Shown here: positions 48,923 through 58,410 of the stretch, one piece after another
How positions within the stretch are numbered: the first letter of the stretch is position 1
How the letters are laid out: the number at the start of each line of letters is the position of its first letter
Origin: Pelagomonas calceolata
Taxonomy: Eukaryota
NCBI GenBank assembly: GCA_918797485.1
Contig: CAKKNE010000004.1
Location: 2,418,001 to 2,482,000 of the forward strand
Direction: 5' to 3'
Length of the DNA stretch: 64,000 bases
Position numbers and translations under genes: made by a program
Notes under the pieces: model-generated
What the model saw: only the letters and a program-made list of their open reading frames with translations
Databases searched by the model: none
What the model was told of the DNA's origin: nothing

Positions 48923-49531
48923 ATGGCAGGTGTAGGTGGAGGTGGAGCCCCCCCCGCCCTGCTCCCGGGCATCGCGCAGCAGAAGAACGCGCTCCTCCAA
49001 AATTTTCTGCTCAGCGCGGCGAACCGCGCGCACCTCACGTCGACGGCGTTCGCGAACGCGACACCGGTCGACCAGCAATCCACGCTTGATGCTTTCGCCA
49101 ATCAGGTGGCGGCGGCGGCGGCGCCGGCGCCGGCGCCGGCTCCCGCTCTGACCGCCGCGGAGCTCCACCAGCAGCGTGTAGACAGGGCCCAAGCCGCGGC
49201 CAACGCTGCGCGGCAAGCCCTCGGTATGCCGCAGTGTCAAATGTTGTTATTTTCCTCGTTTCGCGTTTACTAATCATCCACACAGAGGAAAACAAGCAGA
49301 TCAACCGGATCCACCGCAGCGCGTACCACGATTAAACGGATATGCACGCGCGTCGCGGCCGCGCTCGGCGATGGTCGCGGCCGCGTCAGTCCCCCCCCTC
49401 CTAAGGCTTGTCCTTGAGTATGGCTTCGCTCCTAGAGTATCACGCCGGGCCACGGCATGTACCACATCAGGTTCTTCGACGGCAGCGAAGACGACTCTGT
49501 CTCTCCTCATCACGTCCGCCGCGCGCCGTGA
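48923..49531 (+). CDS. Small hypothetical gene or remnant, possibly spliced to a Tudor-like tail
   Basis: Ala-rich ORF, then gtatgc...cacacag intron; downstream MYHIRFFDGSEDDSVSPHHVRR. The simple splice hits a stop, so the model is unresolved. Confidence 0.35.
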
Positions 49532-49621
49532 CCATTGACCAACGCGGTGGCCCGGCGGGACTCATGGCCTCGTGTAACTAGGTGTTAGGCGCCAACCTAC
49601 TATGGGTGTGGGAGGTGAGGT

Positions 49622-52600
49622 TCAGCTCTCCTTCTTCGGCTCCTTCTCGTCGGGCGGAGGAGCGGACGGCTCGTACGCGGCCTGGCCGGGGGAATACGCT
49701 CCCGTGGAGGGCGTCGAGTCCGCCCCGAAGCTGCTCGGCGAGGATGACGCTTGCCCGGCGCCGTCGAAGCTCGTAGGTGAGTACTGCGTAGGGGGGCGCA
49801 GGGTTAGGTTTCGGAGCGCCGCGCGCGAGACGTCTCCCGAACAACAACTCGTAGCGCCGAGCGTACTGTCGCGAAGCGATCGGCAAACGATCGGCGAAGG
49901 AAAGCCATGTAGCGACGCTGCCACACGCCGCAGGCGAAGAAGGGCTGTAGGCCGGGCTCCTGTGTGGCAACGAAACGGTGATCGCGCGGCAAAGCATTGT
50001 CGTAGGTCGTCCTGGCGCAAAACACGGCGGGCCTCGGTCGTCGGATCCGAGGTCGGCTCCGAGGACCGCTAGAGGCGGTTCCGACGATCAGCAGTGGCCT
50101 TGGCGCAATGGCCGCGGCCGCCGCCTCGGCCATCGCCTCGGCCACTGGTTCCTCAGGCCACTTCGTAGGTCGTCTGGATTCATTATAAGACACCGAAACA
50201 CGTGCGTCGGAGAGTACTGTGTAGAAACAAGATGGGTGAGCTGTGGAACCGATAAAGAGGCGTAACGTCCCTTTTCGGGCTCGAACGAAGTGCTAAGTCT
50301 CACAACGAAGTCGAAGTGCTGTGTAGGGCGCTGGAAACGCACTGCGGGACTCGATGGACTGTAGGCGGGACTCGTAGGCCTGCGTGGAGAACGAACAGTC
50401 AGGGACCCGATCCGAGGCTCTTGGTTGATTCACGACGCCGCGGCGCACGAGTAGGCCGGTGATGTAGGCCTGCGGAGAGAACGAAAGGTTAGCGACCCGA
50501 CCCGAGGCGCTCGATTGAGGACCCGAGGCGCTTGATTGAGTTAGGACGCCGCGACGCACGAGTACGCGGGACTCGTAGGACCTGCGCGGAAACCGAACAA
50601 TCAGGGAATCGGCCCGAGGATATTGGTTGATTCCAGACGCCAGTGCGGCACTGTACGCGGGTGACGTAGGCCTACGTAGAAAAGAAACGGTCAGCACGAA
50701 CGAACGATAAACGTGATGAGAATCGCGAGTCCGGACGCCGGGACGCACGAGTACGCCGGTGACGTAGGCCTGCGTAGAAAAAAAACGGTGAGGGACCCGA
50801 TTCGAGGCGCTTGATTGAGTTAGGACGCCGCGACGCACGAGTACGCGGGACTCGTAGGACCTGCGCGGAAACCGAACAATCAGGGAATCGGCCCGAGGAT
50901 ATTGGTTGATTCCAGACGCCAGTGCGGCACTGTACGCGGGTGACGTAGGCCTACGTAGAAAAGAAACGGTCAGCACGAACGAACGATAAACGTGATGAGA
51001 ATCGCGAGTCCGGACGCCGGGACGCACGAGTACGCCGGCGATGTAGGCCTGGGTGGAAAAGGAACGGTCAGCAAAGCAACCAGGCTCCGTCCGGACGCCG
51101 TGACGCCACGAGTACGCGGGGCTTGTAGGACCTGCGAGGGATACGAACAATCAGGGAATCGGCCCGAGGTTGTTGGTTGATTCCAGACGCCCGGACGGCA
51201 CTGTAAGCGGGTGATGTAGGCCTGCGAGGGATACGAACGGTGAGGGACCCGACCCGCGGCTCGCATGACAGTCAGCACGTACGAACGATAAACGTGACGA
51301 GAATCGCGGACGCCGGAACGCACGAATAGGCCGGACTCGCAACCCCCCCGCCGTACACCGGCGACGCCACGCCGCCATACGCCGGCGACGCCCCGTAGAT
51401 GGGCGACGCGCCGTGCACCGGCGACAAGACGGAAGAAATTCCACCAACAGTAGGAGAAAACGCCGCGTCGCCCCAGCCCGGCGTCGCGCCGCCGCGCGCG
51501 GGAGACGCCCCGTACAAGCCGGCCGGAGACGACGCGTAGGGCGTCATCGCCGGCGCCTGGCCAGGCACCGCGTCGGGCGACGCGTCGCCCCACTCCCTCA
51601 GGGAAGCGTTCTGCTGCTGGTCCGGGGCTTCCAATTCCACGGCGTGTTCCAATTGCGCGGAATCCAGCAATAAGTCAGAAACACCAGTGCCCACATGTGC
51701 GAGCTGCCCGAGCATGATATTCGGCGTGACGCCGTCGACGTCGTCTTTTCTCGCGAAGATCGCGCTTTTGAACAAGACCTCGACGGTCTCCTCGAAGGAA
51801 GCCGACAGGAGCGGCCCCGAGTCGCCCCGGTTGATGCCGTGCCTTGAAATGGCCATCAAGCTACCTCGAAAGCACATCGTATCACAGAGCACCGCCAAAT
51901 GCCGATAGTTCACGTAGGCGCCGTCGAACGAAATGACCTCCCTTAACATCTGCAGCAGGGCCTGCCGCGTGCCCTCGATGCCCATGACCTGTGTTGAAAG
52001 ATCGTTCGCGACGGTAGCTCGAGGCGCTCTCGCATCCAGGGGCGCCGCGTCGACGGCGTACCGGGTGTAGGTCGCGTCGGCGGCGTGGGCGCGGCCGCGG
52101 GCTCTGCCGTAGGCCCAGCCGTCGGCGCGGCCGTGGGCTGGCCCGGCGGCTCGGCCGTGGGCTCCGCAGTAAGCGCGGCCGCGGGCTCGACAGCCGCAGG
52201 GCGAAGCAGAAGAAACGACATGGGACGCCGCAAGACGCACGCTACAAATCTCCACGATGTCGTTCGAGACCGTTCTCGTACAGTCGACGTCGGGATCCGC
52301 TAGGACCGTAGCTAGGTTCGTGCCGTCCGTCTCCAGCACCCATTCTTCCCCGTTGCCCAGCGCGCCCGTGGACGCCCAGATATTTGTTTTTTGTTTTTTG
52401 ATGTAGACCTTCGTCACTCTCGGGATGCCTCTTAGTCTCAAATCAGCCAACATCGACTGCTCGACCCTTCTGAGCAGTTGCCACTCATCGTCGTCGTCCT
52501 CGTCCTGCGGCTGATCTCCACCAGTACGTATACGAACTCTCAGTACCAATTGGTCGGCGTTATCATCAGCGTAAATACAGTGCAAGTCCGCCCCATATTC

Positions 52601-55600
52601 GTCGGCCACCGTAGCGGCGACATCAGCCATCCTCAGTTTTTTGTCAGCGACCACTTCCCGATTCAACACAAACCGCAGCACCCAAGGAGACATAGCCTTC
52701 GCATCAAAATCTTCGTCGGGCACCTCGCAGTAGGCTTGCACGAACTCGCGGTCCTCAGATACCACAGAGTCAGTAGCGTCGGGGTCGTACACGATCTGCG
52801 TCTTCACGGTCACGTCGCCGAGCGTCGTATGTTCGAGTTTGGCCTGGACGCCTCGCGCCTTCGCCTCGTCCTCCTTGCAGTGGTCCGCGAGATAAATTGT
52901 GAGCGATGGAGTTCGGACCGTTTTCGCGACGTTGAGGATCTCATTGAGTCGAGGCACACCGAGCGTGACGTTCTTCGCACTCACTCCGGCAAAGTGGAAG
53001 GTGTTGAGCGTCATCTGCGTGGCGGGCTCGCCCATGGACTGGGCCGCGAGCACGCCGCACATCTCGCCGGCGTGCGCGCGCGCCTGGACGAAGCGCGCCT
53101 CGACCTCTCCCACCAACCTGCGTTGACAACGGGTCGGCGGTTGTCGCGTCGATGGCGTATTGTGGAGTCTAGGCCGGGCCGCGGGCTTCGCTGTGGGCTC
53201 GGCCATTGGCTCGGCCGTAGGCTCGGCCCTGCGCTAGGCAAGGCCCGGCCCAGGCACACAGGTCCCGGCGGAGGTACGGGCCGGCGATGTGTGTGTAGAA
53301 TCGTCCCTCGTGCGGAGGCGACGGCCGGAGGCCAGGCGCGCCGCGGCGCCGCGCTCGGGACGCGCCAAGGCCGGGCTCACAGGGACAACATCGCGTCGAC
53401 GGCGCGGCGGCCGCGTGATCATATGACGCCATCGAGCCGACACGACGCCGCAAAGAAGTAAAAAGCAAAGGACGCCGCAAACAGCACCAGTCGAAGGCCG
53501 CCCGGTTCAGCCGGTGCTCGAACACCACCTTCCGAGCCGCCAGCGTGGACCTAACTAGAATCACAAATAATTGAGTAGCGTCGTCGGCCTCGGCGGCCGC
53601 CGCTGCGGTAGCTTCGGGCGATTGCTCATTCGATTCGCCGACGTCCCGTCGGCAAGTCCTGATGCGGACACACAAGCGCGTGACGCCCTCTAGAACCACG
53701 CGAGGATCTAGGACGGCCGTATCCAACCGCTCGCCGCACTCGAACTGCTTTTGGGCTGCCCACACTAACCGTTCCAAGTTCACAGGTAGCTGCGCAAAAG
53801 GATCCGCGTCGCGGTCCGGCTCGCGGCAAGCGAAGATCGCCCGCAACGCATCGCGATCGCCCTTCAACCTGTCTAACTCCGCCTCGAGCAACGTCTCGAG
53901 GTCCGGATCGGCCCGGCAAGCGGCCGCAACGTCCACATCTAGAGGAACGCCTTGCGTCACGGGACCCTGCTTGTCTCTCCCCTCCGCAAGGTTGATGGAG
54001 TAGGCCTTTCTCAGTTGATCATCCCCCAACAAAAGAGAGGGAAACTTTTGCTTCTCGACCCAGGCGCCGTCGCCGCCGTCCTCGCCGTACAGAAACTGCA
54101 CGACGTGGCCTTGGTTCGTTCGGACCGTGCCATCGTACTGGACAGCTGTCGACTCCATGGACTTGACCAATCTACGTTGTAAGTAACCGGTCTGGGCCGT
54201 TTTACAGGCCGTATCGATGAGACCCTCCCGACCGCCCATGGCATGGAAGAAGAACTCCTGCGGGCTGAGACCTCTCAGATACGAGTTCTCCACAAACCCT
54301 CTCGATTCGGGCCCCAGATCATCTTTCGCGAAATGAGGTAGGGTCCTTCTCCGGAAGCCGTAGGGTATTCTCTTACCCTCGACGTTCTGTTGGCCCACAC
54401 ACGCAATAATCTGACTGATGTTGATGTCGTTACCTTTGGACCCGGCCATGGCCATGGATTTCACGTTATTTGCCTCACTGATACTATCCTGGACAGATAA
54501 ACCCGCAGACGTCCGCGCCGCGTTCAGCACGCGGTTCACCATCGCTTCAAAGGACTCGATCATCGTCCGCCCGGGCTGGCACTCGAGTTCTCCTCTCTGC
54601 CCTCGTTGTACCAGTTGTTTGACCTTGTCCTTGGCCTCATCAATGATCGACTCAATATTTCGCATCGTCGACTGGTCCGCGACCGCATCCCCAATGCCGA
54701 TACTGAATGATACCGTCACCAACCAATTGTTCGTTAATGTCTGCACGCGATTAATCAAGTACATGGTCGCTTCCGAACCTTTTTCCAACCAGGTCACATG
54801 AATCAAACTTCCACCACTTGTCCCAAGGATCTTCTTGTCCATGACGCCCGTCAGCAGCTTGCCCTGATGAATGAGTACGGTCCCGTCGGACCAGTTCAGC
54901 GTGTCGGCGCCCTTCTTCGGGAACCGGTTGCCCTTGCCCTTGAAGTTTAGTTTGGGTATGATGAGGGAAAAGACCTGTTTCCCGGTCCACAACGGCTTCG
55001 GTTTGAGGATGGCCGGCGGCGGGATCACGCCGTCCCAGTCGTCGCCGACCCACATCAGTAAATTGAAGAGTAAATCCTGTTCGATGAACGTGTCTCGGGA
55101 CGTCATTCTCGCAGAGGCTAGTAGCGAATCTTGCACGATGCCCATGACCGGTTTATTGGATTGGGGCGACACGATATTCCTCGGCACCATCATGATCTGC
55201 TCGAGTTCCGCTTTCGCGGCGACCGACTGCGGGACGTGCCTGTGTTGGAAACAAAGGGTCGATGGCGTCCACGGCGATGGCGTGCCCGCGGCGTCGGAGT
55301 CTCGTGGCGCCCCTACGCCGTCGCCGCGACGCATGAAAAGTACAACAGACGCCGCTACGCACAAGTTCATCTCGTCGCCGTCGAAGTCGGCGTTGTACGG
55401 CGACGTGACGGAGAGGTTCAGTCGGAACGTCGAGTGGTCCAGCACCTTGACGCGGTGCGCCATGATCGACATCTTGTGGAGCGACGGCTGGCGGTTGAAC
55501 ACGATGAGGTCGTCGTCGCGCAGATGCCTTTCGACGACGAACCCCGTGTGTAACGCCAGATCATTCAAATGCTTCACGAAGCGGAGGTCTACGCGTCGCC

Positions 55601-57115
55601 CGTCGGCGTGGACGACGTAGCGCGCCCCCGGCCAGACCTCCGGGCCATTTCTTACGAGAGCTGAGAGTTCGTGGACGTTGTACGGCGCTACTCTTTCAGG
55701 CACCGTTAAGGTCTTCGCTATGGACCGAGGAACGCCGACCTGGTCCACACTTAGGTTCGGATCGGCCGTGATCACGGTTCTCGCCGAGAAGTCGACGCGC
55801 TTCCCCATCAAATTACCTCTTATACGACCTTCTTTACCTTTGAGCCGTTGTCTAATAGTCTTCAACGGTTTCCCGCCGCGCTGCTTTTCTTGCACTCCAT
55901 CTTTAGCGTTGGCCTCGTTGTCGAACAACGCGTTGACCTTGTACTGGAGCAATTCCTCGAACTGGGACACGATGTGGGGCGCCTCGCCCGCGCGACACAA
56001 TTGCTCCAAAGTTCTATTGGCTTTCACGATGTTCACGAGCTGGTGCGTCAGGTCGTCTTCGGACCGCTGGTTCGAGTCGCCGAGTTGTACACTGGGACGG
56101 ACGTGGGGCGGCGGCACCGGTAATACCGTGAGTAGGAGCCACTCGGGCCGCGCGTGTCGCGGGTCCAGGCCTAGCAGTCTCGCGTCGCGGTCGGACACGT
56201 TCCGCAGCACCTCGTGCGCCTTGTGCGCGCTCAGGATCTGCTTGCGGTCGCCGGAGCCTGCGTTGTTTCGAGGGTGAGCGTCTCGCGTCGACGGCGGTTC
56301 CCTCTCGCGACGCCAGCGACGCGCTGTCGACGCGTGCTCTCGACGCACGGCGCGCCGGCGGCGTCTCTGTGCGGCTCCAGCGCTCGACGCCATCGACGCG
56401 CAGGCGGCGCCGCGCCGATGGCGTCCACCACGAGAAGCCGTCGACGCGACGATGGCGTCGCGACGCGTGGCGCTCGCGCGAGGGACGCGACGCCGTCCAC
56501 CGGAAGGTCACAACCAGGACGCCGCCACAAACCGGGCACGTGCTCATCATCAGCTGAAAACTCGACCTCGATGCTCTGCGCGTTCCTTTTCCGGAACTGG
56601 GGCTGCAACGCGCCGCAGCCGTAGGACGCCTGCTCCGGGTCGCCGCCTTCTAAGATAGCGGCGTCCAACTCCTCCTTCGTCGCGAACTCGCAGCGCTTCT
56701 GCGTCCGACACAGCGCGTGCATAGCTTCTAACCTTCGCTGAGATTTCAACTTCTGCGCCGCCTGGACTCGATAATCGCTGGGATCGGCCATCAGTCTAGA
56801 ACAATGAAAACAGACGCACCGCAGGACCATCAAGGTCTCTTTCAGGTAACCGAGGTGGTAGCACGGCCTCGCTAATTCTATATGGCCGAAGTGCCCGGGG
56901 TCCTCCTTGTCATCTAGCGACCCCATTCTAGGATCATTCACGCCGCCGTAAACGCCCTTGCCGTCCAAGTACGTCTCATACTTTGAAATTCCCGCGTCGA
57001 CGGCGCGTTCGCGCGCGTTCGTTTTTTGGGTCACGGACATGTTCCGGATCTCATCGGGCCCCAGGATCCCGAACTGGACCCTTTTAATGGCGTGCGTGCG
57101 GCCCGTGAAGACCAT
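49622..57115 (-). CDS. RPB1: RNA polymerase II largest subunit; introns 56258-56532, 55240-55362, 53118-53487, 51989-52240 plus 13 CTD introns
   Basis: GHFGHIELA, GNLMGKRVDF, FNRQPSLH, YNADFDGDEMN, GGREGLIDTA, GEPATQMTLNTFH, SFEET; spliced CTD of YSPTSPA heptads; stop at 49622. Confidence 0.98.
49784..51323 (-). repeat. RPB1 CTD microexon/intron array
   Basis: Exons 51202-51221, 51110-51131, 51028-51048, 50931-50950, 50839-50860, 50749-50769, 50652-50671, 50560-50581, 50449-50469, 50343-50379, 50206-50216 and 49929-49959, each bounded by YAG and GT/GC; 279-bp higher-order period. Confidence 0.9.
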
Positions 57116-57628: not shown

Positions 57629-58410
57629 ATGGCATGAATCGGCGTCCGCAGACGAAAGGAAGCACATTCATAGATGGGTGGTGGCTCTCGCTCAGCGATT
57701 TCGTGCTCGCGGCCGCCAAAAACGCGAGAGCCAGCCCTGCTACTGCAAAGCCCTGCCGAGCGCTCGAGCGCCGCGCGCGCCTGCCTAGCAGGCCGTCGCC
57801 GCCGACGCCAGCCGCCGCGGGAAGCAGCGGAGCGAGCGCTGGACGCGGGACGGCTCCCAAATACACACCGCGCCCGCCGAGACGACTCCGAACGCGAGCC
57901 GCAAACACCGACGCTCGGCCGCGCGGCGCGCACACCCCCAGAGAGAGAGCGCGCGCGTAACTAACCCCGCCTCCCCCAACGCAGCCGCTCACTCGGTTAA
58001 GCAAGAACCGCAAGAAGCGCGGCTCCGTGTCCGCGGGCCACGGCCGCATCGGCAAGCACCGCAAGCACCCCGGCGGCCGCGGCAACGCCGGCGGCCAGCA
58101 CCACATGCGAACGTTGTTTGATCAGTTCCACCCGGGTTATTTCGGTAAGGTCGGCATGCGCCAGTTCCACCGGACGAAGGCGCGCTACCACTGCCCCATG
58201 ATCAACGTCGAGATGCTCTGGAGCACGCTGCCCGAGGGCACGGTCGCGCCCGCCGGCCAGGCGCCGGTCGTCGACGTGACGCAGCACGGCTTCTTCAAGG
58301 TCGGCGGCAAGGGCCTCGTCGCGAAACCGATGGTCGTGAAGGCCAAATTATTTACCGCGGTGGCGGAGAAGAAGATCAAGGCCGCGGGCGGCGCGTGCAT
58401 CCTTGTCTAA
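57629..58410 (+). CDS. RPL27A: 60S ribosomal protein L27a (uL15); ATG alone in exon 1, GC-AG intron 57632-57984
   Basis: [37 protein letters not shown]|gcatgaatcggcgtcc...ctaac...cgcag|CCG gives [14 protein letters not shown]. Confidence 0.95.

What the first reader, a model, noticed from the sequence alone, without database searches (positions are those of the whole stretch)
49622..51330. RNA polymerase II CTD encoded one heptad per microexon
Seen: the RPB1 ORF seems to end without a CTD, but downstream lie nine consecutive 20-22-nt exons (20,22,21,20,22,21,20,22,21). Each reads (S)PTSPAY(S) between YAG and GTG, separated by 61-102-nt introns with branch-like CTRAY/CTCAC and pyrimidine tracts. 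Exons of 37, 11 and 31 nt and a terminal exon follow. Every junction splits a codon in a compatible phase, giving 13 full heptads (11 YSPTSPA, 2 YSPSSPA) plus YSPTS. Known: Ala7 heptads are typical of stramenopiles, and the CTD couples transcription to splicing. Inference: skipping a 21-nt exon or a 20+22 pair keeps the frame, so CTD length could be tuned by splicing as a feedback loop. I do not know of a described case of this layout.
Basis: partly seen in the sequence, partly recalled or inferred. Interest (0 to 1): 0.92.

Follow-up and report, generated by a model that had tools for sequence, protein, structure and literature searches.

The report
Pol II tail built from microexons
In the ocean alga Pelagomonas calceolata, the repeat tail of RNA polymerase II is spliced together from tiny exons of about one seven-residue repeat each; wild copies of the gene are predicted to carry different intron layouts, and the pattern likely arose recently as one intron was copied along with the repeat, probably not as a way to tune tail length.

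Summary
Observation confirmed. Poly(A) reads support all 13 CTD introns, including the 11-nt exon, and the 18-exon model equals a public 1733-aa transcript protein with 13 heptads. The organism is Pelagomonas calceolata; its NCBI gene model misses the CTD. The tuning idea is not supported: junction counts stay flat along the array (neighbouring ratios 0.95-1.03), and no clear skip is among the 15 of 25 joints shown. The real alternative event is retention of GC-donor intron 12 (26-49% by depth), giving an 11-heptad form with an early stop. Comparison shows the layout is young and polymorphic: a 94%-identical sister and Aureococcus have intron-free CTDs, while six P. calceolata-type contigs carry 46 parsed introns at seven heptad sites, with one, two or three heptads per exon. 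The Ser2 introns are largely one family, duplicated with their exons (279-bp unit), with a branch shifted by one base into AGT codons. In-register CTD introns at lower density occur in two other loci here, and this scan noted them before on other DNA (Microbotryum, Perkinsus). Verdict: an extreme new variant of exon-intron cassette duplication, caught while still variable within a species.

The parts
49622..57115 (-). [quoted passage not shown]
   Evidence: model translates exactly to transcript protein P0129; Pfam RNA_pol_Rpb1_1-7 and Rpb1_R
51324..51988 (-). last large exon (E0): end of the catalytic core, linker, first Tyr and two bases of the first Ser2
50449..51221 (-). nine single-heptad microexons E1-E9: 51221-51202, 51131-51110, 51048-51028, 50950-50931, 50860-50839, 50769-50749, 50671-50652, 50581-50560, 50469-50449
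   Evidence: sequence; spliced reads
50380..51323 (-). ten introns (61-102 nt) all inside the Ser2 codon: seven phase 2 (TC^G), three phase 1 (A^GT; introns 2, 5, 8)
   Evidence: homology
50524..51223 (.). tandem array of a 279-bp unit (three exons plus three introns), 2.5 copies; perfect 236-nt repeat starting at 51038 and 50759
50343..50379 (-). 37-nt exon E10
50206..50216 (-). 11-nt exon E11, included in 502 of 504 reads that bridge E10 to E12
   Evidence: tables 5 and 5c
49960..50205 (-). intron 12 (246 nt, GC donor, in Thr4), retained in 26-49% of transcripts by depth; retained form has 11 heptads, a basic tail and a stop ending at 50088
   Evidence: transcript proteins P0128, P0202, P0203
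49929..49959 (-). 31-nt exon E12, followed by GC-AG intron 13 (49928-49784)
49622..49783 (-). terminal coding exon: YSPTS, Ser/Pro-rich and acidic tail, stop
49570..49573 (-). likely mRNA 3' end, about 50 nt past the stop codon
   Evidence: many first mates begin here in all four runs (table 6)
51989..56532 (-). four gene-body introns: 56532-56258, 55362-55240, 53487-53118, 52240-51989; three of them absent in some wild copies

Best explanation
The P. calceolata CTD is encoded by constitutively spliced one-heptad microexons, and this layout likely arose recently when an intron gained in one heptad was multiplied together with the heptad by the recombination that normally maintains CTD repeats. 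Steps: (1) shown: the lineage gains and loses introns in RPB1 quickly, since four of five gene-body intron positions are present in some wild copies and absent in others, and the sister lineage has none; (2) inferred: an intron landed in the Ser2 codon (TC^G) of one heptad; (3) partly shown: unequal exchange or conversion between heptads copied exon-plus-intron cassettes, as in the 279-bp duplicate in the window and the repeated 63-nt exon plus intron in L045; (4) shown: one descendant sits one base earlier, in AGT serine codons, and was then copied too, which yields the 20/22/21 rhythm; whether it slid or re-inserted is open; (5) inferred: selection holds the protein near 13-15 heptads while the DNA layout drifts; (6) inferred: short introns with a strong shared donor motif, branch-like site and U-rich tract are removed by intron definition, so 20-nt exons are included almost always. 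The layout is most likely tolerated rather than adaptive. Retention of weak GC-donor intron 12 is the one common alternative product.
For: Reads support all 13 introns with flat junction counts. L006 (94% aa) has the whole gene as one 1751-codon frame with 14 uninterrupted heptads, and the Aureococcus-type L008 has at least 19 in one frame, so the state is derived. Gene-body introns present in 1 of 4, 5 of 5, 3 of 5, 4 of 7 and 2 of 6 covering copies at residues 195, 493, 1077, 1370, 1545. 37 of 46 parsed CTD introns lie in Ser2; phase-1 copies (11) are 89% alike, the 69-70-nt phase-2 copies (14) 84%, the two groups 71%, and their interiors align beyond all 150 shuffles; phase-1 copies form one branch in an unrooted, midpoint-drawn tree without a clade test. 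Introns 4=7 and 5=8 and exons 4=7 and 5=8 are identical. L045 has the same family in only 4 heptads, with 42- and 63-nt exons, and lacks the phase-1 intron at its AGT codons. L004 and L005 have the same units in other orders. No copy of the Ser2 family lies elsewhere in the 64-kb window or in the 45 loci. Yeast CTD DNA is known to expand by recombination while repeat number stays nearly constant (PMC4882425, passages).
Against: Only 64 kb of the genome could be searched, so a dispersed introner family with this sequence is not excluded. The one-base shift with a TCG-to-AGT codon difference is not what plain duplication gives; it needs sliding or a second insertion. The 77-nt and 61-nt intron types share ends but not interiors with the 69-70-nt type, so the family is mosaic or has more than one origin. 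Wild layouts come from short metagenome contigs parsed without RNA; repeats can be misassembled, and L002 switches to L003-type sequence inside the array. Wild copies differ at 49-82 of 663 exon bases, so they may be cryptic species rather than alleles. The order of events (gain in the window type or loss in L045) is not rooted.
Confidence: 0.7

Rival explanations
1. The introns are a mobile intron (introner-like) family that inserts again and again before a G in Ser2 codons, by DNA transposition or by reverse splicing into the same transcript, and cassette duplication is secondary.
For: The same family occupies two different phases; L045 has the empty AGT site; seven heptad sites are occupied across copies; 956 putative introner elements are reported for this species (bioRxiv 10.1101/2021.10.25.465678, passages); CTD and gene-body introns share a donor motif GTGC-N3-8-GGCGTC (12 of 19 window matches are RPB1 donors, 3.5 expected).
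Against: No copy outside the array in the window or 45 loci; three viral-contig hits are 19-base chance matches; the reported elements peak near 210 bp, not 70; no notable fold in 6 of 6 introns tested; identical introns come with identical exons, as cassette duplication predicts.
Confidence: 0.17
2. The microexons are a regulatory device: skipping 21-nt exons or 20+22 pairs tunes CTD length as feedback from splicing to transcription.
For: 32 of 78 possible contiguous exon deletions keep the frame; database proteins with 10, 13 and 16 heptads exist; 10 weaker joints were not displayed.
Against: Neighbouring junction ratios 0.95-1.03 with about 4-5% sampling error; no unambiguous skip among the 15 joints shown; the 10 and 16 forms match the 63-nt period of a perfect 59-nt repeat; L045 and the L003 type reach similar proteins with layouts that allow other or no single-heptad skips, so the device is not conserved even within the species group.
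Confidence: 0.06
3. Retention of GC-donor intron 12 is a regulated switch: when splicing is slow, RPB1 mRNA is held back or degraded, or makes an 11-heptad polymerase with a basic tail (not exclusive with the best explanation).
For: Depth in intron 12 is 26-49% of exon depth against 0.4-4.8% in intron 11 and about 2% in intron 1; the form was assembled independently (P0128, P0202, P0203); the stop lies 159 nt before the last junction; a homologous intron at the same Thr4 site follows a 10-nt exon in L003.
Against: GC-AG introns are about 14% of introns in this species (bioRxiv 10.1101/2024.10.30.620910, passages) and slow removal may be plain inefficiency; L003 has a GT donor here; L045 lacks this intron; run conditions are unknown and come from at most one sample.
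Confidence: 0.2
4. The introns were selected because they break up the 21-bp repeat and protect CTD length from contraction.
For: Yeast CTD DNA contracts about ten times more often than it expands (PMC4882425, passages); 42 of 42 database ORFs that run from the linker into non-heptad sequence do so within the first heptad.
Against: The introns lengthen the perfect repeats: 236 nt in the window against 17 nt in intron-free L006 and 47 nt in L008; layouts are visibly reshuffled; intron-free relatives keep 14 or more heptads.
Confidence: 0.05

Closest known systems
Stramenopile RPB1 CTD with YSPTSPA heptads (PMC3646058, passages)
   Same: Same Ala7 heptad and an ordinary protein product; most full-length hits carry YSPTSPA runs.
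   Different: 13 heptads, against mostly 17-28 in full-length stramenopile hits, encoded across 14 exons; the paper's text has no passage on introns inside the CTD.
In-register CTD introns in other eukaryotes (L023, L042 here; AI notes e1-7146932 Microbotryum and e1-7223435 Perkinsus, unchecked)
   Same: Several introns at the same spot of the heptad; exon lengths that are multiples of 21 nt.
   Different: L023 and L042 have 3 introns each in Ser5, exons of 63-105 nt, and no interior homology between their introns. Here there is one intron per heptad, the introns are young paralogues, two phases alternate, and the layout varies among wild copies.
Tandem exon-intron cassette duplication in repeat-protein genes (collagen 54-bp exons, nebulin; recalled) and micro-exon genes of Schistosoma (recalled)
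   Same: Repeat unit and exon coincide and grow by tandem duplication.
   Different: Micro-exon genes make variable secreted proteins by skipping symmetric exons; here six of nine microexons are not multiples of three, skipping was not seen, and the gene is an essential housekeeping subunit.
Introner elements and intron presence-absence polymorphism (P. calceolata elements; Zymoseptoria, PMC5647799, abstract and passages)
   Same: Recent gains, families of similar introns, GT and GC donors, rapid turnover among conspecific copies.
   Different: The family found here is confined to one repeat array in the DNA searched, is about 70 nt long, and spreads with its exon.
One-base intron sliding (PMC3488318 passages; PMC2891723 abstract)
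   Same: Homologous introns one base apart.
   Different: Both positions coexist many times in one gene and go with the two serine codon families.

Membership tests
RPB1 with heptad CTD | Rpb1 domains 1-7 plus C-terminal repeat | tested here: met
   Pfam on P0129, which equals the window model
Spliceosomal (U2-type) introns | GT/GC..AG ends, removed from mRNA | tested here: met
   11 GT-AG and 2 GC-AG; spliced reads for 13 of 13
Tandem exon-intron cassette duplication | paralogous introns linked to paralogous exons at a fixed period | tested here: met
   279-bp unit, 236-nt perfect repeat; intron homology
Introner elements | many near-identical copies in unrelated genes | tested here: inconclusive
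   none in 64 kb and 45 loci; whole genome not available
Introner elements | terminal inverted repeats and target-site duplication | tested here: inconclusive
   no dedicated search; folds of 6 introns no better than shuffles; flanks share at most G or GT; the species' element logo is in a supplement that was not seen
Introner elements | presence-absence polymorphism among close relatives | tested here: met
Micro-exon genes (Schistosoma type; definition recalled) | mostly symmetric microexons | tested here: not met
   3 of 9 microexons are multiples of three
Micro-exon genes (Schistosoma type; definition recalled) | frequent exon skipping that varies the protein | tested here: not met
   flat junction counts in one sample; rare skipping not excluded

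The most novel reading that the evidence does not exclude
A single short spliceosomal intron is caught spreading through the coding repeat of the Pol II CTD, heptad by heptad, until it saturates the array; it can also move to a new phase within the same gene, and wild P. calceolata carries competing, independently invaded versions (Ser2 type, Ser5 type, partly filled type). This would be intron multiplication in cis in an essential gene, seen within one species, and it leaves Pol II synthesis dependent on 13 extra splicing events, one of which (intron 12) acts as a splicing-sensitive brake.
Probability: 0.3. Interest if true: 0.82.

Novelty: new variant of a known kind. Interest (0 to 1): 0.62.

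Why it matters
It gives a dated, within-species series (empty sister, partly filled, saturated, independently invaded copies) for two processes usually inferred from old events: intron gain by local multiplication and one-base intron sliding. It also shows that an intron-poor alga (0.186 introns per gene in one published count) splices nine consecutive 20-22-nt exons accurately, a natural test of intron definition in a culturable organism. Practically, the reference gene model lacks the CTD, so surveys that report 'CTD-less' RPB1 from gene models may be wrong; the Chrysophaeum taylorii model also ends without heptads.

Tried and rejected
No whole genome was held, so the intron family was searched only in the window, the 45 metagenome loci and viral contigs (3 hits, all limited to the 19-base pattern, chance). 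A first identity matrix (matches over the shorter length) was inflated by gaps and was replaced by local scores against 150 shuffles (the printed header says 300 but 150 were run). The intron walker stopped at residue 114 of L006, so L006 rests on tblastn and its open frame; the position-by-position comparison of that frame with P0121 was out of register and is not used. RNA folding of 6 introns gave z from -1.28 to +1.65: no structural signal. The three irregular joints (50468-50838, 50768-50559, 50949-50748) were rejected as skips or circles because they join identical exon copies and their counts add up with the regular joints. The 10/16-heptad and 8/11-heptad database variants were rejected as evidence of tuning. 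Reads at 49452-49533 with fixed differences and loose ends come from another gene and were ignored. Of loci L009-L044, L029-L040 and L044 have no heptads and are probably viral or other polymerases; they were not used. Literature searches found no description of this layout: searches returned 0 papers; some searches returned listings with none on introns in the CTD by title or abstract start. The library lacks most subscription papers, and the main comparative CTD survey (Yang and Stiller 2014, recalled) was not seen.

Full report
Observation. On the minus strand the RPB1 frame ends at 51272 without heptads. Downstream lie nine exons of 20,22,21,20,22,21,20,22,21 nt, then 37, 11 and 31 nt and a terminal exon. 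Joined they read 11 YSPTSPA, 2 YSPSSPA and YSPTS, then a Ser/Pro-rich acidic tail. Introns 1-10 (61-102 nt) all sit inside the Ser2 codon: seven at TC^G and three (2, 5, 8) at A^GT. Introns 11 and 13 lie between Ala7 and Tyr1 (phase 0), intron 12 in Thr4; 12 and 13 have GC donors.

RNA evidence. Four raw poly(A) runs (at most one sample; 6-12% of each read) were laid on 49400-52100. All 13 introns are spliced. Summed joint counts: E0-E1 502, E1-E2 452, E2-E3 466, E3-E4 315, E4-E5 568, E7-E8 703, E9-E10 756, E10-E11-E12 504 (502 with the 11-nt exon), E12-E13 545. Because E4=E7 and E5=E8 are identical, reads split between equivalent placements; adding them gives E5-E6 687, E6-E7 721, E8-E9 720. 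Likely 3' ends cluster at 49570-49573. The 18-exon model equals the public transcript protein P0129, 1733 aa, with Pfam Rpb1 domains 1-7 and the C-terminal repeat.

Organism. The 99%-identical cluster holds CAH0374029.1, named Pelagomonas calceolata by NCBI; Aureococcus RPB1 is 88% identical. The NCBI model keeps two heptads and then reads through introns and has no CTD Pfam hit. Published counts make the species intron-poor, 0.186 introns per gene with about 14% GC-AG (bioRxiv 10.1101/2024.10.30.620910, passages); another paper reports 956 putative introner elements and an intron length peak near 210 bp (bioRxiv 10.1101/2021.10.25.465678, passages and section 18; its supplements, which hold the element logo, were not seen). 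YSPTSPA arrays in stramenopiles are in print (PMC3646058, passages).

Is CTD length tuned by skipping? 32 of 78 contiguous exon deletions would keep the frame, so it is possible. But none of the 15 joints shown, of 25, is an unambiguous skip, and neighbouring junctions balance: E6 flows over E9 flows 0.95 +/- 0.04, E5-E6 over E6-E7 0.95, E8-E9 over E9-E10 0.95, E2-E3 over E1-E2 1.03, a smooth rise toward the 3' end. Skipping of E1+E2 is bounded only loosely because one equivalent joint (E3-E7) is among the ten not shown. Database proteins with 10, 13 and 16 heptads, and 8 and 11 on the retained background, differ by three heptads, the 63-nt period of a perfect 59-nt mRNA repeat, as assemblers produce; a real 10- or 16-heptad form would shift the E6 flows, which it does not in these reads. 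This is one sample under unknown conditions.

The alternative form that exists. Depth wholly inside intron 12 is 29, 49, 31 and 26% of E10 depth in the four runs, against 0.4-4.8% for intron 11 and 1.5-1.9% for intron 1. The retained form encodes 11 heptads, YSPT and a 38-residue basic tail, stopping at 50088, 159 nt before the last junction; it matches transcript proteins P0128 and P0203. Whether it is regulated, translated or merely slow is untested.

Relatives. One scan of metagenome contigs gave 45 loci. L006 (94% aa on the query, 136 of 666 bases different) has the whole gene as one 1751-codon frame with 14 uninterrupted heptads, and Aureococcus-type L008 has at least 19 in one frame. P. 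calceolata-type copies (98-100% aa) differ at 49-82 of 663 bases in E0 and in their introns. Gene-body introns at residues 195, 493, 1077, 1370 and 1545 are present in 1 of 4, 5 of 5, 3 of 5, 4 of 7 and 2 of 6 copies that cover them. In the CTD, a parse that recovered all 13 window introns found 46 introns in six copies at seven heptad sites: L004 and L005 have one Ser2 intron per heptad in other orders (10 each before the contig ends); L045 has 15 heptads with four Ser2 introns, exons of 42, 63, 63 and 37 nt, no intron in its AGT codons, and three Ala7/Tyr1 introns; L003 has none in Ser2 in its first four heptads but introns at Ser5, Ala7 and Tyr1, then a Thr4 intron homologous to window intron 12. 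L002 starts like the window and switches to L003-type sequence, a recombinant or an assembly chimera. These layouts have no RNA check of their own, though P0156 has 15 heptads and the L045-type tail. Among 73 listed cluster members (not a random sample; 15 of 85 for the main cluster), 19 do not reach the CTD, 33 read into a Ser2-type intron, 9 into a Ser5-type intron (8 by script plus P0170), and 12 carry heptads: 7 named transcripts, the NCBI model, 2 of the sister type, 2 unnamed.

The intron family. Of the 46, 37 are in Ser2. The 11 phase-1 copies are 89% alike, the 14 phase-2 copies of 69-70 nt 84%, and the two groups 71% (69% in the interior); interior scores between them exceed all 150 shuffles in most comparisons shown, while gene-body introns and other-site introns show no such match to them. 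The 77-nt and 61-nt types share ends but not interiors, and intron 1 is a mosaic of the 77- and 69-nt types. The window holds a 279-bp three-exon, three-intron unit in 2.5 copies with a perfect 236-nt repeat. No copy lies outside the arrays in the window or the loci. A donor motif GTGC-N3-8-GGCGTC occurs 19 times in the window against 3.5 expected; 12 are RPB1 donors (9 CTD, 3 gene body) and the other 7 are within the chance range.

How it most likely works. Shown: constitutive inclusion, young paralogous introns tied to their exons, intron-free outgroups, variable layouts. Inferred: in a lineage that gains introns fast, an intron entered one Ser2 codon and was carried along by the recombination that reshuffles CTD repeats, known in yeast to expand the array via Rad52 while the count stays at 24-26 (PMC4882425, passages); one copy moved one base into an AGT codon by sliding or re-insertion and was copied in turn, making the 20/22/21 rhythm; selection keeps 13-15 heptads. 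I put this at 0.7, repeated independent insertion at 0.17, tuning by skipping at 0.06, selection for repeat stability at 0.05 (the introns lengthen perfect repeats, 236 nt against 17 nt in L006). Regulated retention of intron 12 is a separate add-on at 0.2.

What is known. In-register CTD introns are not unique: L023 and L042 each have three Ser5 introns with exons of 63-105 nt and no interior homology, and two unchecked notes of this scan describe the like in Microbotryum and Perkinsus. Fast intron turnover among conspecific strains is described in Zymoseptoria (PMC5647799, abstract and passages), and one-base sliding is accepted as rare but real (PMC3488318, passages; PMC2891723, abstract). 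Collagen-type and Schistosoma micro-exon genes are recalled, not read. I found no paper on a CTD split one heptad per exon, in a library that lacks most subscription journals.

Verdict. Real and RNA-confirmed; a new, extreme variant of a known kind. Its value lies less in the proposed feedback than in a within-species series of intron invasion and sliding in an essential gene, and in the warning about gene models. Interest 0.62.

Noticed in passing
window 49960-50205 (-): Intron 12 (GC donor) is retained in 26-49% of poly(A) transcripts by depth, giving an 11-heptad form with a basic tail and an early stop.
   Followed up: partly
P0125 (CAH0374029.1): The NCBI gene model for P. calceolata RPB1 has two heptads and then reads through the introns; it lacks the CTD.
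   Followed up: yes
P0011 (Chrysophaeum taylorii RPB1 model): Ends right after the linker with no heptads; it may hide a similar interrupted CTD or an assembly gap.
   Followed up: no
L023:7744-8087 and L042:1508-2099: Two other eukaryotes with Ala7-rich CTDs have three in-register introns each in the Ser5 codon, exons of 63-105 nt, introns unrelated to each other.
   Followed up: partly
window 51326-51988 vs L001-L005: Wild copies differ at 49-82 of 663 bases with almost identical protein: very high synonymous diversity for one species, or cryptic species.
   Followed up: partly
window 51989-56532 (-); L001-L009: Gene-body introns of RPB1 are present or absent among wild copies; the one at residue 493 is in all five copies but varies from 123 to 198 nt; those at 1077 and 1370 share a 12-bp GC-rich repeat.
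   Followed up: partly
L002:4934-5030: Contig switches from window-type to L003-type sequence inside the heptad array: recombinant allele or assembly chimera.
   Followed up: partly
window 49452-49533: Plus-strand-transcript reads with five fixed differences and loose ends on both sides map here; an 80-base stretch just past the RPB1 3' end has an expressed relative elsewhere in the genome.
   Followed up: no
window 57961-58410 (+): ORF upstream of RPB1, divergently oriented, that looks like ribosomal protein L27a/uL15 (recalled, not tested).
   Followed up: no
P0135-P0147 (Aureococcus cluster): Heptad counts of 4, 8, 9, 14 and 21 among near-identical entries, likely collapse of an intron-free repeat during assembly.
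   Followed up: no
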